A stretch of 61,104 nt of DNA from a virus (Duplodnaviria; Caudoviricetes): the IMG/VR virus record IMGVR_UViG_3300030118_005363, positions 1 to 61,104 of that record; one strand, given 5' to 3'. The notes beneath the pieces are model-generated. The model saw nothing but the letters and a program-made list of their open reading frames with translations. It did no database searches and was not told where the DNA came from. The number at the start of each line of letters is the position of its first letter. Within the stretch, counting starts at the first letter, position 1. A program made the position numbers and the translations under genes. Of the stretch, positions 1-61,104 are shown one piece after another.

Positions 1-139
1 GACTCTTTATGTTCTTCTTCATGCACCGATAACAAGTAACGGGCTGACGCAGAATCAACATTAGACCATATCATTTCGGATATTTCTTGGCGCAGTGCTT
101 CTGCAAAAGAGTTAATACAAATCTGAACACCAACACCGC
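1..139. repeat. Terminal direct repeat, left copy (circular overlap)
   Basis: Identical to 60966-61104 except G78 vs A61043. Confidence 0.97.
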
Positions 140-227
140 CGTATTCTTCAAGTTTTTGCGCAAGAAGTGTTGCAAGTGTGCTTTTACCAGTGCGCATTCT
201 GCCTGCGATACCAATAAGCAAGGTCAA
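1..227 (-). CDS. Deoxynucleoside monophosphate kinase, N-terminal part (continues across the junction into 60965-60572)
   Basis: TTG at 227, overlapping the upstream stop. Translates MTLLIGIAGRMRTGKSTLA...SFAEALRQEISEMIWSN, with a P-loop, in frame with ORF 60572..61039. Joined length 621 nt (206 aa). Confidence 0.85.
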   Translation of the reverse strand, partial: MTLLIGIAGRMRTGKSTLATLLAQKLEEYGGVGVQICINSFAEALRQEISEMIWSNVDSASARYLLSVHEEEHKE

Positions 228-433
228 AGCCAACCCTCCCTTTTTTCAACAGTGGCTACAACCTTGCGACCTTTCAGTTTCAACCCATTAGGAAAACACT
301 TAGGGCATGTTTTCAACGCCATAGCCTGCGCATCAGTCATGTTAGGTCTATGCTCAACAGGTTCGCCACAAGCGTATCTTGGGTTTGAAGTATCATAATT
401 GTTAGTTCCTTTGTGAAGGTATCTTTCCGCCAT
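224..433 (-). CDS. Small Cys-containing hypothetical protein
   Basis: ATG at 433; CG...CPKC motif; coupled to the downstream kinase by a TTGA overlap and GGAGGG RBS. Confidence 0.55.
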   Translation of the reverse strand: MAERYLHKGTNNYDTSNPRYACGEPVEHRPNMTDAQAMALKTCPKCFPNGLKLKGRKVVATVEKREGWL

Positions 434-458
434 GTTTGTAAGGAATATTACTGTCCTC

Positions 459-911
459 TTAAACCCCACGCCTCTCACAAACAAGACACACCTTCATTTC
501 CGGCATGTGCCTCATCTGCTTACACTTAGGACACCTTTGCGCATTTTCCTTCAATTCATTTGTCATACAGGAAAACGGCATTGTCAATTCAATATCTTCT
601 TCTCTTTGAATTAAATTCCTATCAACATCAAAAACCATATTGCGCACAGTAAGACCATTGCTTAACTCAATCTTCGTATGACCTATCTTGATTACTTGCG
701 CATTTTTACTAATCAAGGCCGCAAGGCTGGATTCGGAGGGAACATCACGGAACATACCTAACTCATGCAACGATTCTGCTACTTGTGAACGAGTCATACC
801 GCCTTCACTATGGAACAGGATGCGAACAATTGTTCTGCGCAGTCGTGAGTTATTCTTTGCCACTACACCGTATGCACAAACATAAGGTATTTTAATCATC
901 GCCCATTGCAA
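459..911 (-). CDS. Putative winged-HTH protein with C-terminal zinc ribbon
   Basis: GMTRSQVAESL helix pattern; CPKC...CLVC at the C-terminus. Confidence 0.55.
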   Translation of the reverse strand: MQWAMIKIPYVCAYGVVAKNNSRLRRTIVRILFHSEGGMTRSQVAESLHELGMFRDVPSESSLAALISKNAQVIKIGHTKIELSNGLTVRNMVFDVDRNLIQREEDIELTMPFSCMTNELKENAQRCPKCKQMRHMPEMKVCLVCERRGV

Positions 912-1089
912 GGAACATTGACGCAGAAAAAGAGGAATCGTCGGTTGTCAGTATTGGTTGAGGGTTTTGCATTGCTTCTTTAGCCAAAGCCATGTAGTAA
1001 AACGGCGCAAATAGCGCATAGCAAAAATACCCATAAACAGGAGTTAAGAAAAATAGTAAGACTACAAATACATCTTCCATTACAACCAC
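892..1089 (-). CDS. Small membrane protein
   Basis: Hydrophobic N-terminal segment; overlaps neighbouring genes of the operon. Confidence 0.5.
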   Translation of the reverse strand: MVVMEDVFVVLLFFLTPVYGYFCYALFAPFYYMALAKEAMQNPQPILTTDDSSFSASMFLAMGDD

Positions 1090-1742
1090 CCATCTTCATT
1101 CTGCTGTTTTTTCTTGACACCTTTCGGGAGAGAATCTTTGTTGGTTTTGCGCAGTTTATTAGCAACGACTTCATCTTGTCTAACTATTGTTTCCCAATGT
1201 AAGTCATTGTTGCGCACACCAAAAGGTCTTGGGGTTTCGTCACTCTTTTTCTTCTTTGGGTATGACATTCTGCGTATTGGTTTGTGCGCATACGCAATCA
1301 TAGCATGTTGATAATCTTCGGGAACATTAGTGAAAGCCTTAGCCAGTGTGCGCCAAAGCGATATGTCTTTGTTGTTCTCTTTGAGGAAGGAAAGCATCAA
1401 CGGGATAGGCACTTTGGAACACTCGCCAAACGCTTTATTTCTATCACGCCATCTTAGTGTTGCGTCTATGTTCCGAGCATAGTCTTGTTTTTTGAATATA
1501 CCGTCATAAATAACTGCGTCGTTTTTCTTGATGTTTGGGGGATTCTCGCAAACAAAGACCATTCTGTGCGCAATGTAAGGCAACCAAGCAAGACATTCTT
1601 TTGCTTTAGGATTTCTTTCATGAACAATGACTGTCAAATCCTTTACTTGAGGGTTGCAAGAAACATAACCGCCCTCGACAAAATTGCCTTCACGGTATTT
1701 TTGCGCATCATGCGTGAAAATGAGAACGCCCATCCCAAACAC
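1080..1742 (-). CDS. Hypothetical protein (possible degenerate clamp-loader large subunit)
   Basis: 220-aa ORF; PLMLSFLKEN segment and KKQQNEDGWL tail. Function is speculative. Confidence 0.6.
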   Translation of the reverse strand: MFGMGVLIFTHDAQKYREGNFVEGGYVSCNPQVKDLTVIVHERNPKAKECLAWLPYIAHRMVFVCENPPNIKKNDAVIYDGIFKKQDYARNIDATLRWRDRNKAFGECSKVPIPLMLSFLKENNKDISLWRTLAKAFTNVPEDYQHAMIAYAHKPIRRMSYPKKKKSDETPRPFGVRNNDLHWETIVRQDEVVANKLRKTNKDSLPKGVKKKQQNEDGWL

Positions 1743-20002: not shown

Positions 20003-21505
20003 CTAAAAAAACGGCACAAACCGTTTATTTCTTGTAATTCTTTTAGATTTTTTACCCGCAGACCACTTTGACGCATCTAATGACCCTCCAACGACTGCTA
20101 AACCAGTGTTTTGAGCCGATTTTACTTGGTCTATGGCATGTGCAAGTGCCATTACAGTGTCATTATGCTTGCCTTTGTCTGTTATGTCGCCGTTTTTCCA
20201 TACATGCGACTCTAACTCGTCAAGTAGTATGCTCATAACACGCCTTGTTTCATCGTTGCCGTATGGTATAATGACTTTTTCTTGTTCAAACCACACTCTA
20301 AGACGATTTAACAATCCTTGCTTCAAAGTTTTGTTAGATACCTTGCTCATTTGCAAATTTAGAGTAAGACCCTTTTGGTTGATTAGTGATTGATACAAAG
20401 ATTGGAAACCTGCGCTTTCAAATGCAAATACTGGGTGCTTGTATGCGTCATCAAAGTCTTTAATTACTTTAATTTGTTTAGCAGGCGGGAAATCATTGCG
20501 TCGCCACATATTTACAATATGAACATTGCCGTCTTTGTCTTGCCTAAGCACAATTGCAACAGTATAGTCTTGTCCGATACCATGTGAAGGGTCAAATCCA
20601 ACAATGTAATCGCCGTCATGTAGTTTTTGTTTTTGCAATATTCTATCCATGTCAAGATTTTTGCGAGTAAGTGTTTGTGGAAATACTGCGCTATCATCAT
20701 CAACAACCATACAAAGATACTCTTGCGCAAATGCTAACTCACCAATAGCCTCTCTTTGTTCAAGTAAAAACTCAAGAGGGCGTTCATCAGCCCAAAGACA
20801 AACAGGTTTTACATTGTCGGGGTCATTGCGCCATTCATCATAATTAACAATTGCACCTTTCTGCCATGTTTCCCATGCGTCATTACCTAACATTTCAGTA
20901 TGGTAAAGGTCATTCATACTCATAGGTGTGCCAACACAAAACAAACTGGTCTTAGGTGATAGCATAGGTGTAAGTTTTTTTCTAAACCATTGCTGATATA
21001 CTTCATAGGACATATCATTTTGGTCGTCAATAATATCATCAAGAGCAATTGCGGCGGGGTGTTCACCACGAATACCCGAACCAACCGATGTAGCCTTAAT
21101 CCATGCCCCATTTGTCAAACGCAATTCAAATCTGTTGCCTTTTGTCAAATCAACCTTTTTAGATAATTCGGGGTGTCTTTTTAAATCTTGGCGTATTTCT
21201 TCTAAACGATTCATTGCAAGGTCTTTATTTGCAGAAAATAACCAAATAGTGAAAGGTTTGCCTCGCCACTTTTCAAAAAGTAGCATGTGTAATAACTTTA
21301 CACGAAGCGTTGTGGACTTAGAGTGGTCACGAGGCGCAATAATACAAACACGGTGAACTTGTTTTCCTTCATTGTTTCCATACAAGTCAAGCCATTCTTG
21401 AATATGGTTGCCCCATTTGTAACCTAACCATTCATAAAAATGGCGTATATCATAACGACTACGCTCAAGATGAAAGGTTGTCATTAAACGAACCATCGTC
21501 ACCAC
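20003..21505 (-). CDS. terL: Terminase large subunit
   Basis: APRDHSKST (Walker A), IRGEHPAAIALDD (Walker B), VGTP, nuclease motifs GFDPSHGIGQDY and HNDTVMALA. Confidence 0.92.
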   Translation of the reverse strand: MVTMVRLMTTFHLERSRYDIRHFYEWLGYKWGNHIQEWLDLYGNNEGKQVHRVCIIAPRDHSKSTTLRVKLLHMLLFEKWRGKPFTIWLFSANKDLAMNRLEEIRQDLKRHPELSKKVDLTKGNRFELRLTNGAWIKATSVGSGIRGEHPAAIALDDIIDDQNDMSYEVYQQWFRKKLTPMLSPKTSLFCVGTPMSMNDLYHTEMLGNDAWETWQKGAIVNYDEWRNDPDNVKPVCLWADERPLEFLLEQREAIGELAFAQEYLCMVVDDDSAVFPQTLTRKNLDMDRILQKQKLHDGDYIVGFDPSHGIGQDYTVAIVLRQDKDGNVHIVNMWRRNDFPPAKQIKVIKDFDDAYKHPVFAFESAGFQSLYQSLINQKGLTLNLQMSKVSNKTLKQGLLNRLRVWFEQEKVIIPYGNDETRRVMSILLDELESHVWKNGDITDKGKHNDTVMALAHAIDQVKSAQNTGLAVVGGSLDASKWSAGKKSKRITRNKRFVPFF

Positions 21506-25429: not shown

Positions 25430-27829
25430 ATGCCCGACCCTCAACCAAATGAAAATCGTAATGATTTTATGGATAGGTGCATGGGTGATGATAAAATGAG
25501 AAATGAATTTGAAAATCCAGCACAAAGAGCCGCAGTATGCAATTCATACTTTGAAGGTAAAAAAGCCGATACTGTTGAGGCTTTACAATATGGAAGGCCG
25601 GGAAAAAATGACCCACGAAAGACACCTGCTAAACCAAGTGAGCGCAGAAAGGGTTCAAAGAAAAATAAACCGGGTTCTGCTAAAAAACCTAACAAATCAA
25701 TTAGCATGAGCAAATCAACAGAAGCACGCATTCGCAAATTGATGACAGAACATAACAAAAAGGTTGCAAAAAAAGGCAAAGGGTCAAAAGCAAGCATGGG
25801 AAGGCTAAAGTCAGTGTTTAGAAGGGGTGCAGGTGCATTTTCTCGTTCACACGCACCTAACATGAGCAGAACTGGTTGGGGAATAGCAAGAGTCAAAGCA
25901 TTTTTGTATCTTTTGCGCAATGGCCGACCAAGTAACCCAAATTACAAACAAGATAATGATTTACTTCCTAAATCTCATCCAAGAGCAAAAAAAGCAGATG
26001 AAGATTATGAGGACTGGGATGGGGTTGAGTTTGAAGGCGCAGAATATCAAGGGCGCAAAGTTACACTTAACAAACCGTTCAGAACTCCAAAAGAAAAGAA
26101 AAAGTTTGCAGTATATGTTCAAAATCCCGCAGGTAAAGTAGTTATTGTTAGATTTGGCGACCCTAACATGGAAATTAAGCGTGACGACCCAAAACGACGC
26201 AAAGCATTCCGTGATAGGCATAGTTGTGATGAGAAGAAAGATAAGACTACTCCGGGTTACTGGTCTTGTAAAATGTGGGAAAAAGGAAAATCTGTAACAG
26301 ATTATACCAGTAGCGAGTTTAATAAAACAGACGAAAGTGTAACAGAAGTCATGGGCGGTTGTGGTTGCGGTTGTAGCGGTGATTCCGTTGAAGCCAAGAT
26401 GATTAGAAAAGATGTATTTGATAATCCAGCAGAAGCCATGAGAAGGGCTAAAGAAATGGGATGCGATGAAATTCACTCACATGAAGAAGATGGTCAAACA
26501 GTCTTTATGCCATGCAAAACTCATAATGAATATATGCAAAAAAATGAAGGAAAGGATATTCCTAAGAAAGAACAAGAAGTCGAAGGTTATGGTAGTGGCG
26601 GCGGAAGCGGCGGCAGTTATGGTCGTTCTTCTTGCAGAACAGGTTATAAAATGCAAAATGGAAAATGTGTAAAGGCTACATTCCAAATAGATATTGACAT
26701 AAATGTTGATGATATGGTTTTGCAAGCAACAACAGGTGAATATATTGTTGCAATATCGGGTGTTGCATTCCATGATGGCATTAACAGAAATGGTTGGGAA
26801 ATAACAAGAGCAGGCGCAGACCTTGCAGTATCACAAATGATAGGTGCAGACTTAACCTTAAATCATCCTACTTCTGAAAATGGTCGCTTTAAGAGAAATA
26901 TGAATGGCGGTGTTGATGAAGCAGTAGTTGGATTTGTCACAGAAGCATCCGTTGTTGATAAATTCAATGGCGATTGGGAAGTTAGATTCAAAGCAGAAGT
27001 TCACAGAAAAGAGTTGTTTGAGGCTCTTGAATCCGGTCTTTGGCTAAGACAAGGCTATGGAGTATCTATTGGTGGTAGTGGCATTCCCGATAAAATGGCA
27101 GAAGCAGAAGATGGCAAAATGATTATGACATTTGAAAGCGATTTCCAATTCGACCATCTTGCAATTGTGCATAGACCTGCATACAACGGCGCAAAAATTG
27201 AAAGCGTTGAAAGAGTAAAATTAGCAGAATCCGCAGAATCCTTTAATAATCATATAGATTCTGTTCCAACCATCGCAACGGAGAGAAACCCAATGTCAGA
27301 AGAAATTGTAGCATCCGAAGAAATCAGCGAAGAAGTTATTGAAACTCCTATCGCAGAAGAATCCACTATTGACTATTCCGCAGAAATTGAGGCTCTAAAG
27401 GCTTCACTTGCAGAAAAAGAAAAAGAACTAAACTCAATCAAGGCCGCAGAAGAAGCAAAAGCCGAAGAAGCACGCCTTGCACTTGTTAAGAAAGCAAGTG
27501 ATATGGGAATTGCAGGTATTGATGCACTTCCTTCTGAAACTCTTGAGTCAATCATTGCTTCCTTTGAGGCAAAGACTGCAACAGAAGAAGTTGTTGAAAT
27601 GACACCTGTTGCAAGCAGTGTTGAGGCATCCGAAACACCTGCAACCCCTGCATCAACAGAAGTTGTTGCAAACTATCTTAACAGAAAGAAACTTGAAACT
27701 CCTGTCGGTATTTATGCAAAGGCATACAACGCATGGGCTAAGGCTTGGAATCAAACCTTGTCTGCCGCAGAAAAAGACCGTATGGGTGCTAAAACTTTTG
27801 AAGAATTAAAAGAACAAAACATGATTTAA
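25430..27829 (+). CDS. Multidomain prohead protease/scaffold protein
   Basis: Located before the capsid genes; GVAFHDGINRNG, LNH, GVSIG, DHLAIVHRPAY protease-like core; acidic coiled-coil C-terminus. Confidence 0.75.
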   Translation: MPDPQPNENRNDFMDRCMGDDKMRNEFENPAQRAAVCNSYFEGKKADTVEALQYGRPGKNDPRKTPAKPSERRKGSKKNKPGSAKKPNKSISMSKSTEARIRKLMTEHNKKVAKKGKGSKASMGRLKSVFRRGAGAFSRSHAPNMSRTGWGIARVKAFLYLLRNGRPSNPNYKQDNDLLPKSHPRAKKADEDYEDWDGVEFEGAEYQGRKVTLNKPFRTPKEKKKFAVYVQNPAGKVVIVRFGDPNMEIKRDDPKRRKAFRDRHSCDEKKDKTTPGYWSCKMWEKGKSVTDYTSSEFNKTDESVTEVMGGCGCGCSGDSVEAKMIRKDVFDNPAEAMRRAKEMGCDEIHSHEEDGQTVFMPCKTHNEYMQKNEGKDIPKKEQEVEGYGSGGGSGGSYGRSSCRTGYKMQNGKCVKATFQIDIDINVDDMVLQATTGEYIVAISGVAFHDGINRNGWEITRAGADLAVSQMIGADLTLNHPTSENGRFKRNMNGGVDEAVVGFVTEASVVDKFNGDWEVRFKAEVHRKELFEALESGLWLRQGYGVSIGGSGIPDKMAEAEDGKMIMTFESDFQFDHLAIVHRPAYNGAKIESVERVKLAESAESFNNHIDSVPTIATERNPMSEEIVASEEISEEVIETPIAEESTIDYSAEIEALKASLAEKEKELNSIKAAEEAKAEEARLALVKKASDMGIAGIDALPSETLESIIASFEAKTATEEVVEMTPVASSVEASETPATPASTEVVANYLNRKKLETPVGIYAKAYNAWAKAWNQTLSAAEKDRMGAKTFEELKEQNMI

Positions 27830-27840
27830 GGTGATTAAAA

Positions 27841-28272: not shown

Positions 28273-28291
28273 GATTAAAAAAATATAGGAG

Positions 28292-49003: not shown

Positions 49004-49207
49004 TCAGTAAAGTGGACTTTCTGCTAAAGGTTCGTTCAAAACCCAACGCAAACTTTTGATTACACCACGCAAAGCGTTATAGTTTCTTATCGCCCTGCGC
49101 ATTTCTGTTTGGTCTGCGTAACTTCTATCAGTCAAAATTTGAAGCCATCTATCTCTTAACTTAGATGCTTCTTTCAGCATATCTCGTATTTCGTTATCAT
49201 CTTTCAC
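49004..49207 (-). CDS. Small helical protein
   Basis: GTG-started KDDNEIRDML...LRWVL, overlapping the primase stop. Confidence 0.5.
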   Translation of the reverse strand: MKDDNEIRDMLKEASKLRDRWLQILTDRSYADQTEMRRAIRNYNALRGVIKSLRWVLNEPLAESPLY

Positions 49208-50198
49208 AGAACCAACACCCTTTACCGTTGCACAAGTTATGTTTTTTATACCATAGTGGGGAAGGCGCATGTTCGTATTTGCGCACTGCACCCGCTACAT
49301 ACTTTCTTGTTATCGCCTCGTTGTAGTCTTGCCAATCAAGACCTTCTATGAACAAGCATATTTGGTCTGTTATTTCATGGTTTTCTTCGTCTGACAATGC
49401 AGAAGGTGATGCGTAAAACGCTAACTGTCTGCGCATTTCTTGAACAAGTGCTACTCGGACATGATGTGGTGGGTTGCTAACTTGTATCGCTCTTTCAAGA
49501 CAAGTCGGTAGTGCGCAGACACCATCAACAACACCCATTGATTTGCCTTCACCAACAAACGCAGTCTGTTTGCGCACAGGCATTGGATTGTCTTTAGCCC
49601 ACTTTACCAAATCAAAGCAATCATTTTCCGCAAAAGTGCCTTGAAACGGACACAAATGTTTGTATTCCGGTAATGGTTTTACAGGAATAGGAAAATCGAA
49701 AGGGTTGTCTGCAAACTCTTGCGCAGGGATTGAAACCGCCCACCTACCACGCTTGGGGTTGTATGTTCCCGATACTCTTGTTAGTTTTTCGGGATAACCG
49801 ACTCCATCAAGACTACTCAATCCTTCTGCCATCTTCCTTTGGTAACGGTCAAGATGTAAAGCCCATTCTCGGCCTCTTACGGGGCGTTTGAAGCATTGGT
49901 GGATATGAAACCCCCTGCCAGTCGCTACAAGCCTCACAACGCCGCTTAAACGATGAATTAGAGCAGAAACATCGGCCTTTACTTCTTCCATAGTGAAATC
50001 GTCGTTCATATCGAAATCCCACCATGCTCTATCCATGACGGCAGAATCGTAATTTCCTGCTTCATCAAAAGAAAATAGCGAAGTGTAAATCGAAGTCTTG
50101 CCGTTTAGTCTGCGCACATACTCAACAAAGTCTTGCATGTTATAACAAAAGGTTCTTTTCAAACCCACTTGTCGAGGGAAGTGTAGCATACAAATCAA
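49197..50198 (-). CDS. Archaeo-eukaryotic primase (PriS with fused PriL-CTD-like domain)
   Basis: WWDFD, TGRGFHIH, RVSGTYN; C-terminal LPTC...HHVR...WQDYNEAITR...CNGKGC. Confidence 0.8.
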   Translation of the reverse strand: MICMLHFPRQVGLKRTFCYNMQDFVEYVRRLNGKTSIYTSLFSFDEAGNYDSAVMDRAWWDFDMNDDFTMEEVKADVSALIHRLSGVVRLVATGRGFHIHQCFKRPVRGREWALHLDRYQRKMAEGLSSLDGVGYPEKLTRVSGTYNPKRGRWAVSIPAQEFADNPFDFPIPVKPLPEYKHLCPFQGTFAENDCFDLVKWAKDNPMPVRKQTAFVGEGKSMGVVDGVCALPTCLERAIQVSNPPHHVRVALVQEMRRQLAFYASPSALSDEENHEITDQICLFIEGLDWQDYNEAITRKYVAGAVRKYEHAPSPLWYKKHNLCNGKGCWFCER

Positions 50199-50204
50199 CC
50201 GAAA

Positions 50205-50363
50205 TTAACTGTCCTTAATAACCTCACGGTGGCCGCAAAACTTGCATATAGCGATTCTCTCATTTCCAGTTTCAATGTCACCAGTCAATAGAATCATAGG
50301 TTTGCCTTGCTCGTTACTAACTGTCATTTCACCATCACATTCTGCGCAAATAATCATAACCAT
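50205..50363 (-). CDS. Small zinc-ribbon protein (not in ORF track)
   Basis: MVMIICAEC...ICKFCGHREV. Confidence 0.55.
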   Translation of the reverse strand: MVMIICAECDGEMTVSNEQGKPMILLTGDIETGNERIAICKFCGHREVIKDS

Positions 50364-51205
50364 TCAGCCTCCGAATCAATACCATACTCTTTTTTTACTT
50401 CAAGTATTCTTTTCTGCGCAATAGATATGTATTTCTCGTTTAACTCGCAGATAATACTCTTTCTCCCGTTCATCATAGCAACAACGGCAGTCGTTCCAGA
50501 ACCACCAAAGGGGTCTATCACAGTGCCTCCAAACGGACAACCTGCAAGGACACAAGGCTCAATCAATTCGGGAGGGAATACTGCGAAGTGTGCTTCGGGG
50601 TATGCTTTAGTGGCGACAGACCAAACACTGCGCTTTCTGCGCAAATCAAAAGAAAAATTCTTACTTCTTTTGAACAAATCATTGTCGTTTCTATCACCGT
50701 TAATACCGTTTGACCTTGAGCCATTTTGATAATTTTTCCGATTAGGGTTAGCAACGGGTTCTTGAATCGCCTCCCAATCAAAATAATACTTTGTCTTTTT
50801 GCTCAAAAGGAAAATATGCTCATGGGATTGAACGCACCTATCCTTTACGGGTTCGGGCATACATGCGGTTTTGTTCCAAATTATATCTTGTCTTACCAAC
50901 CAACCGTCTTTTTGTAGCGCAATAGCAAGTTTGTGAGGTATCATAAGAAGTTTTTTGTTTTTGTATGTATCGCCTATGTTCAGCCAAACAGTGCCGTTGT
51001 CTTTGAGTATTCTGCGCACTTCTCTAAATATCTCAACCATCTTTTCAATATATTCTTCGGGGGTTTCTTCTGCGCCGATTTGACCCTCAATGCCGTAATC
51101 TCTCAAAGAATAATAAGGCGGCGATGTTATGCAACACTGAACATGCTTATCGGGCATCTTCTTCATCAAATCTAAACAATCACCTTCAAGAATTTGATTC
51201 ACCAT
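50354..51205 (-). CDS. DNA methyltransferase, N4-cytosine/N6-adenine beta class
   Basis: TSPPY catalytic motif, HFAVFPPEL, DPFGGSGTT SAM-binding motif. Confidence 0.92.
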   Translation of the reverse strand: MVNQILEGDCLDLMKKMPDKHVQCCITSPPYYSLRDYGIEGQIGAEETPEEYIEKMVEIFREVRRILKDNGTVWLNIGDTYKNKKLLMIPHKLAIALQKDGWLVRQDIIWNKTACMPEPVKDRCVQSHEHIFLLSKKTKYYFDWEAIQEPVANPNRKNYQNGSRSNGINGDRNDNDLFKRSKNFSFDLRRKRSVWSVATKAYPEAHFAVFPPELIEPCVLAGCPFGGTVIDPFGGSGTTAVVAMMNGRKSIICELNEKYISIAQKRILEVKKEYGIDSEAEWL

Positions 51206-52369: not shown

Positions 52370-54601
52370 TCACAGCCATTGCATAGTGTCTGCGCCGTTG
52401 AGGGCATTTTCAAGAGTAATGACATTCCAACCCATGACCTCATAGTAAGGTAAAACTTTATTGTAAATGAACCGTTCAGCGATATGACGATAGCCGATTT
52501 GCGCAATGCCTTCGATTTCCGAAGGGTCATCAAATGCAATATATGCGCCGTTATCATCAAGTGTCGTCAAGAAGTAGTCGTCTTTGCGGTAGCCTTTTCC
52601 TAAGTGGGTGTTAGCCCAATGCGCACCTGCTCTCGCTTCTCCGAGAGTAGTGTATTGGTTTAGATTTTTACTTAACTTTGCCTTGATGCACAAATCTGCA
52701 ATCGGAATTTGTTTGCGCACAACACTGCGCAGTAAATCTTCAATTGAAGAAGTGATTTCGCTTTCAGTTTTATGTTGCAAAATTCCTGTAATCACGGAAG
52801 ATAGCGCAGTCTTACAAGCCTTCGGTAATCTGCCCTGCTTCATTTCAATGCCCTTGACATAGATTTGCGCAGGATGGAAAACACCATCAGTCCATGACAC
52901 ACTGCCTGCGTAGCGGTTCTTAGCCATGATTAGGAAAGTATCACACCACTTTTCAAACTCGGTTTCGATAGGACTCATGCGCTGATTAACTACGCCTAAT
53001 AATTGAAGTCCTTTTTCGGGAGAATCAACATCGCACATGATAGAATCGGTGTGTCCGTAGCGCACTGTGCAACCTAACTCATTTGCAATATCACGCAGTC
53101 TGAAAAGTGTTTGGCGGGAAGTGTATGTTATTGCCGCCGCAATATCGGGATGATAGAAGCCACACTTTGAGTCACCTGCTACCCCATACATAGATGCGAC
53201 AAGGGATTTTGTTGCGTATTGTAATGCGTCATACCTCTTGCGCTCTTTTTCTGTCGGCGCAGATTTCATCTGTTCCTTGTATTTGTTGCGCAGAACAGTC
53301 ATGTTATCCATCTGTCTGCCAAGCAAACCAGTTTTGTGTTTATGGAACATGACACCGTTGCCGCAATCAAAGCCTCCGCCGAGAGTAGTCCAACAAATGT
53401 TATGCAGTTTCACATTACTGTGATACATCGCTTTAATATCCATGATTCCTATGTTTCTATACACACCAACAACGGGGTCTTGAATATCTGCGCCTGTGTA
53501 GTCCACCTTCTCAAACTGTGGCTTGCTTGGTATTTGTTGGTGAAACTCTCTATCACGCAATGCGAGAATCGGAAAAATCTTGCTAACATAAGGCGTAGTG
53601 CGTATGTCACACTGAACAATGTGCTGAATCGCAGTGAAATAGTCAAGTGCGCCAACCAAGTCATCTAATTTAGGCAAAAGGCGCACATCTTGCATTGCGT
53701 AGTCAAGATATGTTCCGAAGTCGTTGTAATAAGTGTCGTGTCCGTCTTTTAACTCAACCTTTGTTTCACCCAAACAATATTCTGAAACTGCGCCTAATCC
53801 CATCGAAGGCAATTGTCCGTTCTTCAAAGTCCATAACTTCTTGAAAGCAATCATCAAATCTATTGTGTTGTAGCCTGCAATCGGTTGCGCCCATTCCCCG
53901 AAGTCATAGCGCACTTTGCGCATAGGGGATAAAGAGCGAATATCAAGTTTATTTGCTTTGAAACGCTTGAACAATTGTTGGCAGTCTGCATTGACTACAT
54001 TCCAACCTGTCAGTATGTCGGGGTCTTTTCTGCGCATAAACTGGGCGAAGTATTGTAGCAATGACTTTTCATCTTTGAACATTTTAATTGGTCTTTCGCC
54101 TTTGCATATCTGCAACCCTTCGGGGTGTTCTTTACATTCAACATGGTCGTAAAGACCACTTTCATATTCGGGGTGATGCGCCAATACAAACTCGCCTTCA
54201 AAGGAATCATGTATGACGATGATTGTTATTTCGCCACTTTCGGTTTTCCATTCCATGTCAAAGAACCATGTCCTGTGTTCATACATCGGGATATTGACAT
54301 TGTGTTCAACAAGAACCCTGTTAGTATGCGCAATGTTAGCCTCCCATGTGCGCATCTTTTTTGCGGTGGCTGAAAGGTCGTCGGTAGTTTGGAAAACAAC
54401 CCTGCGTAGTTTCTCTCCGTAAAGTCCTTCATAACCCTCATCGGGCAACACTGCGAAGGGAGGGGTCAATTTACCTATGTCACTTTCCTCAACATAACAA
54501 AAAGGACTGCAAGAGTATTTGCTTTCGGCACGCTTGCCATCTGCGGTTCGCCATCGAACCACTATGTCATTCTTCTTCGCTCTTTCCACTATCAAAGTCA
54601 A
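52370..54601 (-). CDS. polB: Family B DNA polymerase
   Basis: Exonuclease motifs FDME, GWNVVNAD, YAMQD; polymerase motifs DIKAMYHS, KSLVASMYG, YGHTDS, KNRY, KGIE. Confidence 0.93.
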   Translation of the reverse strand: MTLIVERAKKNDIVVRWRTADGKRAESKYSCSPFCYVEESDIGKLTPPFAVLPDEGYEGLYGEKLRRVVFQTTDDLSATAKKMRTWEANIAHTNRVLVEHNVNIPMYEHRTWFFDMEWKTESGEITIIVIHDSFEGEFVLAHHPEYESGLYDHVECKEHPEGLQICKGERPIKMFKDEKSLLQYFAQFMRRKDPDILTGWNVVNADCQQLFKRFKANKLDIRSLSPMRKVRYDFGEWAQPIAGYNTIDLMIAFKKLWTLKNGQLPSMGLGAVSEYCLGETKVELKDGHDTYYNDFGTYLDYAMQDVRLLPKLDDLVGALDYFTAIQHIVQCDIRTTPYVSKIFPILALRDREFHQQIPSKPQFEKVDYTGADIQDPVVGVYRNIGIMDIKAMYHSNVKLHNICWTTLGGGFDCGNGVMFHKHKTGLLGRQMDNMTVLRNKYKEQMKSAPTEKERKRYDALQYATKSLVASMYGVAGDSKCGFYHPDIAAAITYTSRQTLFRLRDIANELGCTVRYGHTDSIMCDVDSPEKGLQLLGVVNQRMSPIETEFEKWCDTFLIMAKNRYAGSVSWTDGVFHPAQIYVKGIEMKQGRLPKACKTALSSVITGILQHKTESEITSSIEDLLRSVVRKQIPIADLCIKAKLSKNLNQYTTLGEARAGAHWANTHLGKGYRKDDYFLTTLDDNGAYIAFDDPSEIEGIAQIGYRHIAERFIYNKVLPYYEVMGWNVITLENALNGADTMQWL

Positions 54602-56837: not shown

Positions 56838-57806
56838 TCAGCCCCAAGTCAAGAAGGGCAGGCCGTTCCAAACGACTTCGCCATCCTTGACTGACAGGAC
56901 TGTGTGCGTAGTGCCTAAATGTTCTTGGTTAAACCCTTTCATTTCTTCAATTGAGCATCGGATTTCCCATGCGCCGTCATCGAGGCTTGCGTCGGGCTTT
57001 ACACCTGCCGCAAGGTCGCCTTTCTTAGTGTAGCGAGTAAGCCATAACTGCTGACTGAAAAGGCGCATTGTTCCCTTTTCCCATTCCGGTTCTTCACCAA
57101 TCTTCATAAGACCCTTTTGACCGTTGCCAATATCTGCAAACTGCTTCTTGTCCTTCAAGTGGAAGGTGAAAAACACTGCATCAACAGGCAATTGGTGGCC
57201 TCTATTGGCAATATCACGGAACAATTGATTGCGAATACGCCATTCCGCTTGATTGAATTTGTCACCATCTTCGACATTTACAGGGTTTTTTGAACGGTTC
57301 ATTAGAACATCAGTCATAGCATGTTCACACCACTTCAAGAAACTGCTCATACCGTCAAAGATTACTGCGCCTACTTCGCCGTCACGACACTTCTGCGCAA
57401 CAATATTGATGAAATGCCCCATCTTGTCAATAAGCGCAGTATAGTTTGTTGAATTATCTTCGTTGAAGATTGTGTCATCTAACTCATCATAAAGAGGAAT
57501 GACAACAACATTCTCATCATCGGGATAGTTTGCCGCAACAGTTTGGGTTGCGCTGTTATCAACATCGAAGATGATTATTTGCTTGTCTGCGCCGACATGA
57601 TTTCTTGCAAGGTCAATCGCAAGACCAGTTTTTGCAGTATTCTCTTTACCGACCATAGCCATGCGGATAACTTGTGTGCGCTCACGCTTTCTGTTAAACA
57701 ATTCTGCGTAGTGCGCCCTCATATCACGCTTTTCGACTTTAGGTTCTTCTGCCTTATCTGCCTTCTTCTTTGCGTTAGCCCATGCGTTTGCCATCTGTTT
57801 CACCAT
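56838..57806 (-). CDS. RecA-superfamily (Sak4/AAA_24-like) ATPase
   Basis: VGKENTAKTG Walker A variant, IFDVD, VIFDG Walker B, FTFH. Confidence 0.7.
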   Translation of the reverse strand: MVKQMANAWANAKKKADKAEEPKVEKRDMRAHYAELFNRKRERTQVIRMAMVGKENTAKTGLAIDLARNHVGADKQIIIFDVDNSATQTVAANYPDDENVVVIPLYDELDDTIFNEDNSTNYTALIDKMGHFINIVAQKCRDGEVGAVIFDGMSSFLKWCEHAMTDVLMNRSKNPVNVEDGDKFNQAEWRIRNQLFRDIANRGHQLPVDAVFFTFHLKDKKQFADIGNGQKGLMKIGEEPEWEKGTMRLFSQQLWLTRYTKKGDLAAGVKPDASLDDGAWEIRCSIEEMKGFNQEHLGTTHTVLSVKDGEVVWNGLPFLTWG

Positions 57807-59038
57807 CCTAAGTCTGCGCCTTCTTCTGCGCCGTTTTCATCTTCTGATACTTCAACGCCTTCAACGGAATCCATGACCCACCAACCGCTTACGCTCATAC
57901 GAGGCATGCCAGTCGTTTTGTCAATCCAACCGCCACCGACTGCGACAACCAATGAGCCGACTGCGAAATCAACCTTTGATTCTTCTTCTTTTGAAACCCA
58001 TAGGTCAATAGGCGCAATAGGAGAAGTAATGTCAAGGTCTGCAAGTGTTATGATGTAACCGCCTTGTTCTCTTGGGTCAATGTGCGCTACTTCAAGAGGT
58101 AGTGCGCAAAGAGCATCCCACTTTTCCTTGTCTGTCAGTGTTGAAAGCCAACCTTCAATGTCTGCAAGACCAGTCAAAGGTGTAGCACCGACTAAATCTT
58201 TGAGCAATCCGTCGCCGCCGTTGTCAAATGGCGCACTATCATACATACTGATTAGCGAATCATCTTGGCTGAATACGGAAACGCCGGACTTAGTGTAACC
58301 AACATCGCCAGTTTTACCGAGTTTGACCGGAAGGCGACCAGTGATAAATGTCGGGTGAATAGTCTTTGCATCTTCACCGTTGAAGCGAACCTTAATCGGT
58401 CTGATAGTCTTGTTGTCTGCACTGTTACCTAAGAATACGCAATCACGCATTGGTTCACTTTGCGCACGATAACGGCCATATCTGTAATTAGGGCTACCGG
58501 AAGGCCATGTCGGGGATGATTTGTCAGCAATCATAACGAATAAGCCTGTTCCATCTTCCAAATCCATCGCCGCTTTAGGCAGGGAATCAACATGCTTTTC
58601 TGCGCAAGCCACTTCAAAGGGTTGTTTAGCCTCAAGGGTTGGGTTGTGCGTATATGTGTAGCCGCCATTGACGGAATCGTGAACAAATAATGCGCAAACA
58701 CCTTGAGAAACCAGTGCTTTGCGAGCATCTTCGTCAAGCCCTCTTAACTGAACCTTCATGTTTTCATATTGGCGTGCCGCAATGTCTTTTGTGCGTGGAA
58801 CGCTAACAAACATGCCTTCAATGTTTTCGCAACCACTGCGAGCAAGTCTTGCAGTAATAACTCTCATTTCAGCCGCCGCCATTCTTAGGCACTTCATGTC
58901 AATATCCTCTTGGGATAGACCATTTGCTGATAGGTTTGCACTGTTAGCCGCAAGCACGCTTTCATGCTTTGCAAGCAGTGTTTCAACAGGGCATCCAACA
59001 TTCTTTGCTACTCTTTCGATAATCTTTTCATCAACCAT
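57800..59038 (-). CDS. Probable RPA-like single-stranded DNA-binding protein
   Basis: OB-fold-like C-terminal strands, acidic tail EDENGAEEGADLGW; adjacent to the recombinase-like ATPase. Confidence 0.55.
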   Translation of the reverse strand: MVDEKIIERVAKNVGCPVETLLAKHESVLAANSANLSANGLSQEDIDMKCLRMAAAEMRVITARLARSGCENIEGMFVSVPRTKDIAARQYENMKVQLRGLDEDARKALVSQGVCALFVHDSVNGGYTYTHNPTLEAKQPFEVACAEKHVDSLPKAAMDLEDGTGLFVMIADKSSPTWPSGSPNYRYGRYRAQSEPMRDCVFLGNSADNKTIRPIKVRFNGEDAKTIHPTFITGRLPVKLGKTGDVGYTKSGVSVFSQDDSLISMYDSAPFDNGGDGLLKDLVGATPLTGLADIEGWLSTLTDKEKWDALCALPLEVAHIDPREQGGYIITLADLDITSPIAPIDLWVSKEEESKVDFAVGSLVVAVGGGWIDKTTGMPRMSVSGWWVMDSVEGVEVSEDENGAEEGADLGW

Positions 59039-59094
59039 TTTTTCATTCTCCGGTGTATTTTGTCCTTAGTGTGCTATCCATATAAACCCAGTGG

Positions 59095-59982
59095 TTAGAG
59101 CGTTAGCATTCGGGTGAAATCCCATCTAACGATGTTCTCATCAACGCCATTTACTAAATCACGCTCACTAACTATGGCCGCCTCGACCACTTTAGCAACC
59201 GCATTTGGGTTTGTTGGATTATTTACTGCGTAGTCAAATACTGTGCGCACTACGCTACGCATATTCGTATTACCGAGCATTTTTACTGCTTGTTCCAAAG
59301 ACTTCTCGGTTGAAGCAAGGCGCAAAAATCTGCGTGCATCGAAATCTCCACCAATAGATTCTAAGTAACGCCATGCGTTATCATTATCCATCCCGCATAC
59401 TGCTTGTAATGCGCCTATCGCATTGCGCAAATCGCCAGTGTGAATATTGCAAATGAAATCAATCTCTTTTTCAACGGCATACCCTTCATGGCATGCAATC
59501 GAATGTAGGTAGTCTTTCATGTCTTGTTTTGCATGGGGTGCAAATGTGCGCACTTGGCAACGGGATTGTAGCCACTGCGACACTTTGCTCAAATCATTAC
59601 AAGTTAAGATAAAATATGCGTCTGATGTTTCGATGACACCTTTTAGTGCGCTTTGCGCCGCAGGGGTCAATTGGTCTGCCTCATCAAGAAGAATAATTGT
59701 TTGCTTGTAGCCGTTCTGCGCAAGAGGAATCAAATCATCTTCGACAAACTCAATACCTCTCGTTCTTTTAGATGAAGCATTGAAGGTGTGCAAAGTGTAG
59801 CCCAAACTATGCGCAAGAATAGTCGCCAGTGTAGTTTTACCTGTGCCTGCGCCGATTGAATAAAATAGAAAGTGTTGCATAGGCGCATCTCCTTCAATTA
59901 TTCTGCATATTTCTTGCACAATGGTTCTTTGACCGACAAAATTATCTATGGTCTTTGGTCTATACTTTTCCCACCAAATCAT
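59095..59982 (-). CDS. rfcS: Replication factor C small subunit (clamp loader)
   Basis: WWEKYRP, GTGKTT, NASS, LDEAD, SRC motif, GDLRNAI. Confidence 0.92.
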   Translation of the reverse strand: MIWWEKYRPKTIDNFVGQRTIVQEICRIIEGDAPMQHFLFYSIGAGTGKTTLATILAHSLGYTLHTFNASSKRTRGIEFVEDDLIPLAQNGYKQTIILLDEADQLTPAAQSALKGVIETSDAYFILTCNDLSKVSQWLQSRCQVRTFAPHAKQDMKDYLHSIACHEGYAVEKEIDFICNIHTGDLRNAIGALQAVCGMDNDNAWRYLESIGGDFDARRFLRLASTEKSLEQAVKMLGNTNMRSVVRTVFDYAVNNPTNPNAVAKVVEAAIVSERDLVNGVDENIVRWDFTRMLTL

Positions 59983-60146
59983 CTCATCATCTCCAATTCA
60001 TCTCTATAATAATCTGCCATTTCGATTAGAAATAATTCATTTGCGCAGTCCTTGCATAACTGCTTTGGTTCTGATGCAAACGCATCTGCGCACATCATGC
60101 AAAGCAATCCTTTCTTTTTCAAGATGTATTTGACAATGCGCATCAT
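59979..60146 (-). CDS. Small zinc-finger protein (not in ORF track)
   Basis: LCMMC...LCKDC; ATGA overlap with rfcS. Confidence 0.55.
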   Translation of the reverse strand: MMRIVKYILKKKGLLCMMCADAFASEPKQLCKDCANELFLIEMADYYRDELEMMR

Positions 60147-60451
60147 CAGCAACCCACCATGTCATCATTCTTCTCCTGTGCTTCGTAGTAAGATTCTAAT
60201 TGCGCATCCTTGTATGATTGATACGCCGCATCTTCCGCATCAGCCCTTGCTTCTTCTTCGTCATACCACTCATATTTGTCGTAGGCTAATTCTCTCACCC
60301 AGTCCAATAAAATTTCTGAACCCTTTTGCGTATCATCATGCAACAATTCGCATAGCAAATCAAGTAATTCTTCTGTATCAACATGGAATTTTATCATATC
60401 CCAAGCACTATCGAAACTGCATTCAGCCGCTATCTCATCTGCGTAGGTCAT
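60146..60451 (-). CDS. Very acidic hypothetical protein
   Basis: GGAG RBS; D/E-rich. Confidence 0.6.
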   Translation of the reverse strand: MTYADEIAAECSFDSAWDMIKFHVDTEELLDLLCELLHDDTQKGSEILLDWVRELAYDKYEWYDEEEARADAEDAAYQSYKDAQLESYYEAQEKNDDMVGC

Positions 60452-60571
60452 TCTTTTACTCTCCTATAAACTCACCATAGTAAGGCATTTGCGCAATTTT
60501 TTCATACGCTTCTTTTGGACTTAGATGTGGAAAATGCAATTTCCAAATCTGATTTAGAGTCATTCTTTTTC

Positions 60572-61104
60572 TCATTCTTCTTCGCCCCCTACCATTTCCT
60601 CAACAAACGGCCAAATCGCTTTTATCATTCCTAAAGGCGACATGCCGCTTGTATCAAGAGTTAAAACTCGGTATGGTTTGCGCATTTCTTCTTGCGACGG
60701 TCTGCTCATTGCATTTTCCGAGTAATGCTCAAGTCTATCCGGCTTTGCGCCTCTATCATACAGAACATTTGTGTTAGCCCTTAGTCGGATAAGAATACCT
60801 CCGTTACGCAAAATGTAATCTGCTTCGTTTGAATGGCGCACATCATCAATTATAGTAAAATCACAACCCCTGCGCTTGACTGCTTTAGAAAGAGCATCCA
60901 CCCAATAATCCATGTGTATTATGTCACGCTTTGCTTGCCCCCACGCCTGCAACAAGGGTCTTATGGACTCTTTATGTTCTTCTTCATGCACCGATAACAA
61001 GTAACGGGCTGACGCAGAATCAACATTAGACCATATCATTTCAGATATTTCTTGGCGCAGTGCTTCTGCAAAAGAGTTAATACAAATCTGAACACCAACA
61101 CCGC
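60572..61104 (-). CDS. Deoxynucleoside monophosphate kinase, C-terminal part
   Basis: RPLLQAWG, DYWV, IIDDVRHSNEADYI, HYSE; joins the P-loop encoded at 1-227. Confidence 0.85.
   Translation of the reverse strand, partial: GVGVQICINSFAEALRQEISEMIWSNVDSASARYLLSVHEEEHKESIRPLLQAWGQAKRDIIHMDYWVDALSKAVKRRGCDFTIIDDVRHSNEADYILRNGGILIRLRANTNVLYDRGAKPDRLEHYSENAMSRPSQEEMRKPYRVLTLDTSGMSPLGMIKAIWPFVEEMVGGEEE
60966..61104. repeat. Terminal direct repeat, right copy
   Basis: Matches 1-139 with one mismatch. Confidence 0.97.

What the first reader, a model, noticed from the sequence alone, without database searches (positions are those of the whole stretch)
1..61104. Highly iterated palindrome TGCGCA across the genome
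Seen: TGCGCA occurs 10 times in the first 1.3 kb (157, 191, 327, 538, 641, 697, 836, 1148, 1211, 1285), against about 0.2 expected at roughly 41% GC. It stays frequent, with GGCGCA variants, through most genes in different reading frames, and looks sparser in the major capsid gene. Inference: a HIP1-like iterated site, which in cyanobacteria is associated with a methyltransferase. It could be a methylation/self mark, a recombination or repair signal, or a binding site for a DNA-compacting protein. I know of no description of this in archaeal viruses.
Basis: partly seen in the sequence, partly recalled or inferred. Interest (0 to 1): 0.85.

Follow-up and report, generated by a model that had tools for sequence, protein, structure and literature searches.

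The report
Hyper-abundant TGCGCA word in virus
A marine tailed virus that has purged almost every other palindrome from its DNA keeps one, TGCGCA, as its commonest six-letter word under apparent selection, and no methylase of its own explains it.

Summary
TGCGCA occurs 196 times in 61,104 bp against about 27 expected and is the commonest hexamer. It stays 3.4-4.4-fold enriched after synonymous-codon shuffles, including one that keeps all avoided palindromes forbidden. It lies in all three codon phases and in non-coding DNA. The background is extreme: 49 of 64 hexamer palindromes and six tetramer palindromes are absent. The trait marks one clade of an uncultured PolB-encoding virus family (17 of 80 related loci; one change on the PolB tree), and the sister clade has none. 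Sites are the best-conserved hexamer between relatives, and synonymous positions inside them are protected. The methylase link fails: the window's methylase is a private insertion, and three near-complete relatives encode no recognisable DNA methylase. Related lineages carry other hyper-abundant words with a shared TGC/GCA core, some not palindromic. My leading reading, at about 0.3, is an oriented pentamer TGCGC read by a virus-encoded factor, perhaps its own AEP primase. A host methylase target remains possible. The host is unknown.

The parts
1..61104 (.). 196 copies of TGCGCA spread over the whole genome (the window is the whole 61,104-bp record). The underlying pentamers TGCGC and GCGCA occur 333 and 308 times.
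   Evidence: Module densities are 3.97, 2.21 and 3.86 per kb, each 6-9 times the local dinucleotide expectation.
1..1300 (.).
29939..29968 (.). Tightest cluster: three TGCGCA within 30 bp.
25430..29209 (+). Site-poor block of head-region genes with 1 TGCGCA in 3.8 kb. ORF 28292-29209 is the likely major capsid protein by position, size (305 aa) and conservation only.
   Evidence: 0-1.4 per kb in G000-G003. No capsid profile hit.
20003..21505 (-). Terminase large subunit gene, site-poor (1 site).
   Evidence: Pfam Terminase_6C, E 5e-4, below the curated cut-off. Density 0.7-1.3 per kb in all four genomes.
49197..50198 (-). Archaeo-eukaryotic primase (Prim-Pol fold) with a C-terminal helical bundle. 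Candidate reader of the word.
   Evidence: Alignment A3 has invariant D61-F-D63, G94-R-G-F-H98, H100 and D131. AF2 model pLDDT 82.3. Foldseek best hits are Prim-Pol, LigD polymerase and PriS domains, best E 5e-5. No sequence-level hit in Pfam, PHROGs, NCBIfam or PDB.
50354..51205 (-). N6/N4 type II DNA methyltransferase, a private insertion of this genome. Not linked to the motif.
   Evidence: PF01555 E 2.8e-53; PADLOC MTase_II. Absent at the syntenic place in L001-L003, L005-L007, L022 and L023.
52370..54601 (-). Family B DNA polymerase, used as the phylogenetic marker.
57800..59038 (-). Multi-OB-fold single-stranded-DNA-binding protein of the replication module.
   Evidence: AF2 model pLDDT 84.9. 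Foldseek hits to SSB, POT1 and RPA OB folds, E about 4e-4 with low TM-scores.
56838..57806 (-). Conserved protein with a P-loop-like motif, probably a RecA/DnaB-like ATPase.
   Evidence: Alignment A2. Only weak, non-significant PDB sequence hits. Inference.

Best explanation
Supported by the tests here: TGCGCA is a DNA-level word kept under apparent purifying selection. It was gained once at the base of one clade of an uncultured tailed PolB virus family. It persists across 41-53% GC and across changes in which restriction-type words are purged. Inferred: the working unit is the oriented pentamer TGCGC, read on either strand, and the palindrome is two such words overlapped on opposite strands. 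My most likely concrete mechanism is that the word is the preferred template recognition site of the virus's own archaeo-eukaryotic primase (49197-50198), whose C-terminal helical bundle would read it. Selection would then keep a priming word about every 190 nt on each strand. This is needed because a 5-nt word would otherwise be rare, and rarer still in a genome that must avoid dozens of restriction words. Related lineages would have drifted to other words with the same TGC/GCA core (TGCGA, GTTGC, TTGCA).
For: Real and not compositional: 196 against 27.35; 175 against 40.0 and against 51.4 in the two codon shuffles; all three phases and non-coding DNA. Maintained: TGCGCA is the most conserved hexamer against G001 (135 of 173 = 78%, all hexamers 40%, rank 1 of 381) and against G003 (rank 1 of 119), and rank 5 of 137 against G002. 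Synonymous codons inside sites are kept more often than outside: CGC 52/57 against 75/110, p = 1e-3; GCG 48/50 against 108/163, p = 7e-6; this replicates against G002 and G003. One origin: 13 of 13 rich rows form one clade (SH-aLRT 89, quick tree) and the sister clade has zero. Pentamer unit: the order-4 Markov expectation is 230 against 196 observed. The flanks behave independently: T precedes GCGC in 333 of 445 cases and A follows in 308 of 445. Half-sites are enriched 2.2-2.9-fold and the palindrome 4.3-fold over codon shuffles. Palindromy not required: sister lineages carry TCGCAA/TTGCGA (60 and 41 against 14.4 and 10.6) and GTTGCT/AGCAAC (53 and 39 against 10.9 and 7.3) on both strands. 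Reader travels with the virus: the word is constant while close kin differ in purged words (CTAG 0 against 36, GTAC 0 against 61, TTGCAA 56 against 0). A primase exists: AEP fold plus catalytic motifs plus helical bundle, with homologues in 16 of 17 rich and 41 of 63 other loci. Precedent: AEP Prim-Pols of mobile elements can be strictly word-specific through a helix-bundle domain (pRN1 GTG; NrS-1 TTTGGTTA and GTG), and the SP6 primase uses GCA (passages).
Against: No result ties the primase to the word; the link is inference. Many family lineages have the same primase and no hyper-abundant word. Blocks of 2-3.3 kb are nearly free of sites, and the same genes are poor in all four genomes, which is odd for a signal needed along the whole lagging strand. 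I know of no case where primase sites are enriched genome-wide (recalled; not found). The pentamer reading is not unique: decaying copies of a hexamer would give similar Markov numbers. A conserved host factor cannot be excluded because the host is unknown. Conservation of sites would also follow from a strong repair drive.
Confidence: 0.3

Rival explanations
1. HIP1-like target of a host-encoded orphan methyltransferase (GCGC or TGCGCA). Sites are methylated during replication in the host and are kept because methylation is useful, or because a methyl-directed repair ratchet creates them, as Elhai proposed for cyanobacterial HIPs.
For: It is a hyper-abundant palindrome whose one-off variants are enriched only at the outer positions (GGCGCA 5.6x and TGCGCC 6.9x, against inner variants at 0-2x), as Elhai describes for HIP1 (abstract). 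Alternate HIPs such as GGCGCC replace HIP1 in single lineages (passages). GCGC m4C methylation exists in marine microbes (a Planctomycetes MAG; passage).
Against: None of G001-G003 encodes a recognisable DNA methylase, and the window's methylase is a private insertion. This family otherwise purges every word that host systems appear to mark. Sister lineages have non-palindromic words on both strands. The word is stable while the purged set, a proxy for the host's restriction repertoire, changes between close kin. Changes at lost sites hit all six positions rather than one deamination position (small numbers).
Confidence: 0.25
2. Binding site of a virus-encoded (or host) double-strand DNA-binding protein, for example for compaction, protection or timing of expression.
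For: Sites are selected and clade-specific. Flanks show a weak palindromic preference (T at -2 in 102 of 196, A at the mirror position in 83 of 196). Per-gene density is strongly gene-specific and conserved, high in small early-region genes and low in head, terminase and tube genes. Site pairs closer than 50 bp are depleted 0.73-fold (the genomes are not independent).
Against: No candidate protein was found. Genes present in G000-G003 but missing in G004 have no known function, and G004 is only 84% complete. The two flanks show no synergy, which a dimeric binder would predict. No helical phasing at 10 or 10.5 bp; a nominal signal at 11 bp was not tested against a shuffle null.
Confidence: 0.15
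3. Chi-like self mark that attenuates a host (or viral) exonuclease acting on linear DNA. A palindrome would work from both ends.
For: Short GC-rich words, lineage-specific, strongly over-represented and selected. The virus encodes a Cas4/RecB-family nuclease (51199-52092) and an XPF nuclease.
Against: Known Chi words are oriented and skewed with replication (recalled). Here there is no strand bias beyond the codon null (observed 2.8:1, null 2.2:1). No RecBCD/AddAB-type reader is known in archaea (recalled). The nucleases are shared by lineages without any such word.
Confidence: 0.1
4. Neutral drive: biased mismatch repair or gene conversion (VSP-like) keeps converting near-misses into TGCGCA, with no function for the word.
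For: TGTGCA and TGCACA are about half of expectation (17 against 31 and 15 against 32). Elhai's model allows HIP abundance as a by-product (section 3.4).
Against: Differences between close genomes occur at all six positions. The enrichment is absent from a stable set of genes in all four genomes, which a genome-wide repair bias would not spare. Xu et al. argue that positional conservation favours selection over replenishment for HIP1 (abstract only), and the same pattern is seen here.
Confidence: 0.1
5. By-product of codon use, dipeptide use or of the massive palindrome avoidance, or an assembly artefact.
For: Codon use (CGC, GCG) and the ban on CGCG and RGCGCY fully explain why every GCGC sits in TGCGC or GCGCA. 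The avoidance raises the shuffle expectation from 40 to 51.
Against: 175 observed against 51.4 +/- 6.5 under the strictest shuffle. Sister-clade genomes with equally strong avoidance have 0 TGCGCA. The pattern recurs in 17 contigs bearing 15 different metagenome identifiers.
Confidence: 0.02

Closest known systems
HIP1 (GCGATCGC) and 'alternate HIPs' (GGCGCC, RCCGGY, GCSGC) of cyanobacteria (Elhai 2015, PMC4390886; Xu et al. 2018, PMC5861425)
   Same: A short GC-rich palindrome is the most over-represented word. It occurs in all reading frames. Sites are conserved between genomes beyond background. One-off variants are concentrated at the outer positions. Different lineages carry different words. 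Density is of the order of one per few hundred to one thousand bases.
   Different: This is a 61-kb virus, not a cellular chromosome. Three near-complete members have no cognate methylase in the genome. The word stands alone against an almost complete purge of other palindromes. Sister lineages carry non-palindromic equivalents. The enrichment is 7-12-fold for a hexamer, against the 15-300-fold reported for the HIP1 octamer (abstract).
Word-specific primases of mobile elements: pRN1 ORF904 (GTG), phage NrS-1 PrimPol (TTTGGTTA, GTG), SP6 (GCA), T7 (GTC)
   Same: The virus encodes an AEP prim/pol domain followed by a helical bundle, the layout in which the bundle reads the template word. The enriched words are short, oriented, and share a three-base core with variable flanks.
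   Different: No biochemical specificity is known for this primase. Genome-wide enrichment of a primase word has not been described, to my knowledge. The site-poor gene blocks are unexplained.
Restriction-site (palindrome) avoidance in phage genomes
   Same: The genomic background: 49 of 64 hexamer palindromes, six tetramers and many asymmetric words are absent, with sets that differ between close relatives.
   Different: TGCGCA goes the opposite way. It is avoided in the sister clade (0 against 8 expected in G004) and is the top hexamer here.
Chi sites and other oriented genomic signals (KOPS, uptake sequences)
   Same: An over-represented short word, specific to a lineage, maintained by selection.
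   Different: Those are asymmetric and skewed with replication direction (recalled). Here the word is palindromic or present equally on both strands.

Membership tests
Highly iterated palindromes (HIP1 class) | A palindromic word is by far the most over-represented oligomer of the genome, independent of reading frame | tested here: met
   Top hexamer, 196 against 27 expected; phases 26/78/71; 21 of 196 outside called genes.
Highly iterated palindromes (HIP1 class) | Sites conserved between related genomes more than background (Xu et al. 2018, abstract) | tested here: met
   78% against 40% (rank 1 of 381) versus G001. Synonymous-site tests give p = 1e-3 and 7e-6.
Highly iterated palindromes (HIP1 class) | A methyltransferase specific for the word or its core is encoded in the same genome (Elhai 2015, abstract) | tested here: not met
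   G001-G003 give no hit to PF01555, PF00145, PF02086 or PF02384. The window's methylase is a private insertion. A host-encoded enzyme is not testable here.
Highly iterated palindromes (HIP1 class) | One-nucleotide deviants concentrated at the first and last positions | tested here: met
   Outer variants are 1.8-6.9x expectation; inner variants are 0-2x.
Highly iterated palindromes (HIP1 class) | Periodic distribution at 10-90 kb (Xu et al. 2018, abstract) | not testable with these tools
   The genome is 61 kb. At short range no convincing period was found.
Primase recognition word | The replicon encodes a primase with a template-reading domain | tested here: met
   AEP fold, DxD and GxGxH-type motifs, and a C-terminal helical bundle at residues 232-319. 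The fold match is by predicted structure only (TM 0.34-0.57).
Primase recognition word | The primase initiates preferentially at that word | not testable with these tools
   Needs a biochemical assay.
Primase recognition word | The word is available on both strands along the whole replicon | tested here: inconclusive
   TGCGC occurs once per 183-198 nt per strand overall, but 25430-29209 holds only 7 GCGC in 3.8 kb.
Chi-like oriented signal | Asymmetric word with strand skew tied to replication direction | tested here: not met
   The word is a palindrome, and half-site orientation follows gene orientation about as the codon null predicts.
Dispersed repeat element (REP/MITE-like) | Conserved sequence beyond the core | tested here: not met
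   No information beyond weak W at +/-2.

The most novel reading that the evidence does not exclude
Viruses of this family carry a heritable, lineage-specific 'priming code'. Each lineage's own AEP primase reads a 5-nt word (TGCGC, TGCGA, GTTGC, TTGCA). Selection for enough priming sites, in a genome that must also avoid dozens of restriction words, makes that word the commonest oligomer, in its most compact form as a palindrome that serves both strands. Word and primase reading domain would co-evolve, so k-mer signatures of such viruses would report the specificity of their replication enzymes.
Probability: 0.25. Interest if true: 0.85.

Novelty: new variant of a known kind. Interest (0 to 1): 0.72.

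Why it matters
Highly iterated palindromes have been an open problem in cyanobacteria for three decades, and every proposed explanation there involves a resident methylase. Here the same kind of signature appears in small, complete viral genomes that lack any recognisable methylase. It has a clean on/off contrast between sister clades and variant words in neighbouring lineages. It also shows how far restriction pressure can reshape a viral genome. Here 49 of 64 hexamer palindromes are gone, and the purged sets turn over between genomes that are 82% identical. This bears on host prediction and on reading k-mer signatures of uncultured viruses.

Tried and rejected
Compositional and codon explanations: rejected by dinucleotide shuffles, Markov models, a synonymous shuffle and an avoidance-preserving synonymous shuffle.

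'Every GCGC lies in TGCGC or GCGCA' looked like a special context. It is fully explained by the absence of CGCG and of RGCGCY, so I dropped it as evidence.

Virus methylase co-occurrence: rejected. I also tried to guess the target of the window's methylase by comparing word counts in G000 with the methylase-free G001-G003. No word stood out, and GANTC is equally common in all.

McrBC-like reading of the AAA_5 protein at 16276-18567 with its DUF7192 neighbour: rejected. PHROGs places it with CobS-like 'porphyrin biosynthesis' ATPases and PADLOC gives no hit.

Z-DNA-type alternating purine-pyrimidine tract: the flanks do not continue the alternation.

Periodicity and phasing: no helical phasing at 10 or 10.5 bp. 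There is a nominal signal at 11 bp that I did not test against a shuffle null and do not trust. A bumpy pair-correlation is inflated by shared ancestry of the pooled genomes. Only the depletion below 50 bp (0.73x) is worth noting.

Density against protein conservation: no relation (rho -0.005, n 36).

Replication-linked strand switch of half-sites: not seen beyond gene orientation. One 5-kb bin (15-20 kb) runs against the trend and is unexplained.

Clade-specific gene as reader: nine ORFs are present in G000-G003 and not found in G004, but G004 is 84% complete and none has a known function.

Host identification: the genome-contig scan gave only three contigs, in a Rhodobiaceae, an Opitutales and a Nanohalarchaeota MAG, which I take to be mis-binned or distant. 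The protein atlas gave only viral clusters.

Of the 80 viral loci examined (of at least 118 stretches), only L196 is a family member with the signature. Four unrelated records fetched whole (G006-G009) have 1.2-4.1x only. Of the 80 metagenome loci examined (of at least 120 stretches), none shows genome-scale density. These scans neither support nor exclude a host-driven origin.

Sequence-level annotation of the primase, SSB and two other conserved proteins failed in Pfam, PHROGs, NCBIfam and the PDB sequence search. Two were resolved by predicted fold.

Supplementary files of the papers were not opened. Tables of motifs per MAG in Hiraoka et al. 2022 might list TGCGCA or GCGC for marine archaea.

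Full report
**1. The observation**

The window is the whole record: one contig of 61,104 bp. One hundred dinucleotide-preserving shuffles give 27.35 +/- 4.88 (largest 41), and none reaches 196. It is the most abundant hexamer of the genome; the next is TTGCGC with 115.

In my crude gene calls (70 ORFs, 92% coding), 175 sites lie in genes, in codon phases 0, 1 and 2 (26, 78, 71). Another 21 of 196 are not wholly within a called gene, although only 8% of the DNA is non-coding. Shuffling synonymous codons within each gene gives 40.0 +/- 5.1 (max 55 of 300) against 175. The enrichment is therefore real and acts on DNA, not on protein or codon choice.

**2. The background is more striking than the finding**

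- 49 of the 64 hexamer palindromes have a count of zero.
- Six tetramer palindromes (ACGT, AGCT, CGCG, CTAG, GATC, GTAC) are absent against 115-231 expected each, and they are the only tetramers with five or fewer copies.
- Many asymmetric words are purged too: CCWGG, GGWCC, GCAGC, GAGAC, CTCAG, CTGAAG, GGATGT, GTCAAC.
- Every one of the 445 GCGC lies in TGCGC or GCGCA, but this needs no special explanation. The forbidden contexts are exactly those containing CGCG or matching RGCGCY.
- A synonymous shuffle that also keeps 6 tetramers and 26 hexamers forbidden expects 51.4 +/- 6.5 TGCGCA (max 63 of 25 shuffles) against 175. The enrichment is not a by-product of the avoidance.

**3. What the virus is**

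Pfam, PHROGs and PADLOC identify these genes:

| Gene product | Coordinates |
|---|---|
| Terminase | 20003-21505 |
| Portal | 23256-24731 |
| Tail tube | 35358-36431 |
| Tape measure | 37302-40796 |
| Family B polymerase | 52370-54601 |
| RFC-like ATPase | 59095-59982 |
| Short XPF/ERCC4-HhH nuclease | 48259-48963 |
| Cas4-like PD-(D/E)XK nuclease | 51199-52092 |
| N6/N4 methyltransferase | 50354-51205 |
| CobS-like AAA_5 ATPase | 16276-18567 |
| HNH endonuclease | 12555-13217 |

The nearest named polymerases in the GenBank phage collection are those of haloarchaeal tailed viruses, at about 22% identity. An archaeal host is therefore plausible but not shown.

Passages of Hiraoka et al. 2022 (PMC8919816) report methylation of GATC across marine archaeal MAGs, of AGCT in Thaumarchaeota and weakly in Poseidoniia, and of CGCG and GTAC in Euryarchaeota. 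These are the tetramers that this family purges. I could not identify the host.

**4. Distribution among relatives**

A polymerase-based scan of IMG/VR gave 80 loci with 46-91% identity.

- All of them avoid palindromes strongly: 32-60 of 64 hexamer palindromes are absent in 4-22 kb.
- Only 17 of the 80 (L001-L013, L022, L023, L025, L079) have TGCGCA as their top hexamer, at 8.0-11.7 times expectation.
- The other 63 have 0-2 copies.
- On a quick maximum-likelihood tree of 62 distinct polymerases, the rich rows form a single clade (13 of 13, one change, SH-aLRT 89). Its sister (L014, L016, L017, L020, L021) has none.
- The clade spans 41-53% GC.

Whole genomes confirm this: 168, 155 and 227 copies in G001, G002 and G003 against 24, 19 and 31 expected, and 0 against 8 expected in the sister G004.

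The set of purged words changes quickly. G001 is 82% identical to the window in DNA but has 36 CTAG and 61 GTAC where the window has none. G002 has no TTGCAA where the others have 51-61.

**5. The methylase link fails**

The window's methylase sits between two genes that are adjacent in L001-L003, L005-L007, L022 and L023, so it is a private insertion. The records G001-G003 (98-100% complete by CheckV) give no hit to PF01555, PF00145, PF02086 or PF02384, each of which rings in 9-13 of 14 control genomes. The TGCGCA-free G004 does have a PF01555 methylase.

**6. Sites are maintained**

Conservation of TGCGCA sites between the window and its relatives:

| Comparison | TGCGCA sites conserved | All hexamers conserved | Rank of TGCGCA |
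|---|---|---|---|
| Window vs G001 | 135 of 173 (78%) | 40% | 1 of 381 |
| Window vs G003 | 60% | 22% | 1 of 119 |
| Window vs G002 | 51% | 24% | 5 of 137 |

Where the amino acid is unchanged, the codon CGC is kept in 52 of 57 cases inside a site against 75 of 110 outside (p = 1e-3). GCG is kept in 48 of 50 cases against 108 of 163 (p = 7e-6). The same direction holds against G002 and G003. Where a site is lost, the change can be at any of the six positions. This argues, on small numbers, against a single deamination-repair path.

**7. Anatomy of the enrichment**

A fourth-order Markov model expects 230 copies. T precedes GCGC in 333 of 445 cases and A follows in 308 of 445, and the product predicts 230 against 196 observed. 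The two flanks therefore act independently, and the palindrome has no bonus of its own.

Against codon shuffles the half-sites are enriched 2.2- and 2.9-fold and the palindrome 4.3-fold. The simplest reading is an oriented pentamer, TGCGC, favoured on either strand. The palindrome is two copies overlapped.

There is no conserved sequence beyond a weak A/T preference two bases out. Half-site orientation follows gene orientation about as the codon null predicts (2.8:1 against 2.2:1).

**8. Other lineages have other words**

Screening all loci for the most over-represented hexamer shows:

| Lineage | Word | Observed vs expected |
|---|---|---|
| Sister clade (L018/L019; similar in L014, L020) | TCGCAA | 53 vs 8.6 |
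| Sister clade (L018/L019; similar in L014, L020) | TGCGAA | 46 vs 8.6 |
| L105, L106 | AGCAAC/GTTGCT | about 100 vs 9.2 |
| L024 (their relative) | TTGCAA | 77 vs 8 |
| L032 group | ACCTGC | about 31 vs 6 |

Many other lineages have no such word. The asymmetric words are enriched on both strands relative to gene sense and in several phases. All these words contain TGC/GCA. TGCGCA and TTGCAA are each a four-base core (TGCG, TTGC) overlapped with its own complement, while the sister lineage of each carries the core in an asymmetric word. Palindromy thus looks incidental. L024's nearest relatives have zero TTGCAA.

**9. A candidate reader**

Four conserved replication-module proteins had no family.

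- An alignment of the 333-aa protein of 49197-50198 shows invariant DFD, GRGFH.H and a later D.
- Its AlphaFold model (pLDDT 82.3) matches Prim-Pol, LigD-polymerase and PriS domains (best E 5e-5, probability 1.0, TM 0.34-0.57). It carries a C-terminal helical bundle at residues 232-319.
- The 412-aa protein of 57800-59038 is a multi-OB SSB-like protein.

Passages of Beck and Lipps 2007 (PMC2034472) and of PMC8718748 show that such primases of mobile elements can require a specific template word. pRN1 requires GTG, NrS-1 uses TTTGGTTA and GTG, SP6 is quoted as using GCA, and the word is read by the helix-bundle domain.

This makes a primase word a concrete, testable hypothesis. TGCGC occurs once per 183-198 nt on each strand, which is the scale of archaeal Okazaki fragments as I recall them.

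**10. What does not fit**

- Per-gene density is strongly gene-specific and conserved in four genomes. It is 0-1.4 per kb in terminase, the 25430-29209 block and the tube gene, and 7.5-11 per kb in 459-911, 3157-3792 and 32948-33478. It is unrelated to protein conservation (rho -0.005).
- Lineages without any hyper-abundant word have the same primase.

**11. Verdict**

'HIP1-like' is a fair description of what it looks like. Membership in the methylase-linked HIP class fails on the one feature that could be tested in the virus.

I rank the explanations as follows:

| Explanation | Confidence |
|---|---|
| Virus-encoded reader of an oriented pentamer, most likely the primase | 0.30 |
| Host methylase target | 0.25 |
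| Double-strand DNA-binding protein | 0.15 |
| Chi-like mark | 0.10 |
| Neutral repair drive | 0.10 |
| Compositional by-product or artefact | 0.02 |

My literature searches found no description of an iterated palindrome, or of this degree of palindrome avoidance, in archaeal or marine viruses. The library does not hold most subscription journals.

Noticed in passing
window 1-61104; G001-G004 (L090-L104): Extreme purge of restriction-type words. 49 of 64 hexamer palindromes and six tetramer palindromes are absent, as are CCWGG, GGWCC and asymmetric words such as GCAGC, GAGAC, CTCAG, CTGAAG, GGATGT and GTCAAC. The purged set differs between genomes only 18% apart in DNA (CTAG 0 vs 36, GTAC 0 vs 61, GAGAC 0/0/51/59/94, GTCAAC 0/43/52/0/0).
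   Followed up: partly
window 50354-51205 (-): The N6/N4 type II methyltransferase is a private insertion between the primase gene and the Cas4-like nuclease gene. Comparing word counts with methylase-free relatives suggested no target.
   Followed up: partly
L024 (whole locus); L105, L106: L024 has TTGCAA as its top hexamer (77 vs 8 expected), while its nearest relatives L105 and L106 have zero TTGCAA and instead carry about 100 GTTGCT/AGCAAC vs 9 expected, on both strands.
   Followed up: partly
G004 (L102-L104), L014, L018-L020: The TGCGCA-free sister clade is enriched for the asymmetric pentamer TGCGA/TCGCA: in G004, TCGCAA 60 vs 14.4 and TTGCGA 41 vs 10.6 under codon shuffle.
   Followed up: partly
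window 49197-50198 (-) and 57800-59038 (-): Two conserved proteins with no family in Pfam, PHROGs or NCBIfam fold as an AEP Prim-Pol primase with a helical bundle and as a multi-OB ssDNA-binding protein.
   Followed up: yes
window 12555-13217 (-): HNH endonuclease (phrog_5200, E 8e-47), present in G001, G003 and G004 but not found in G002. It looks like a mobile homing-type gene.
   Followed up: no
window 15233-18567 (-): A CobS-like AAA_5 ATPase (763 aa, ATPase in the C-terminal third) with a DUF7192 neighbour. These are only 28-48% identical among otherwise close genomes. In this 15-20 kb bin, half-site orientation runs against the trend of the other minus-strand genes.
   Followed up: no
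window, whole: TGGGCA and TGCCCA are almost absent (0 and 1 vs about 17 expected each), although they contain none of the purged words I listed. GCSGC is common (134) while GCWGC is absent. Unexplained.
   Followed up: no
G006 (L255-L256), G008 (L258-L259): Unrelated marine viral records also have very over-represented GC-rich words (CTGCGC 37 vs 3.8 with strand bias in G006; GGCGG-type words in G008), so hyper-abundant short words may be more widespread in marine viruses.
   Followed up: no
L086: A 61,226-bp contig binned in an Opitutales MAG carries a polymerase 46% identical to the window's. It looks like a complete genome of this virus family placed in a bacterial bin.
   Followed up: no
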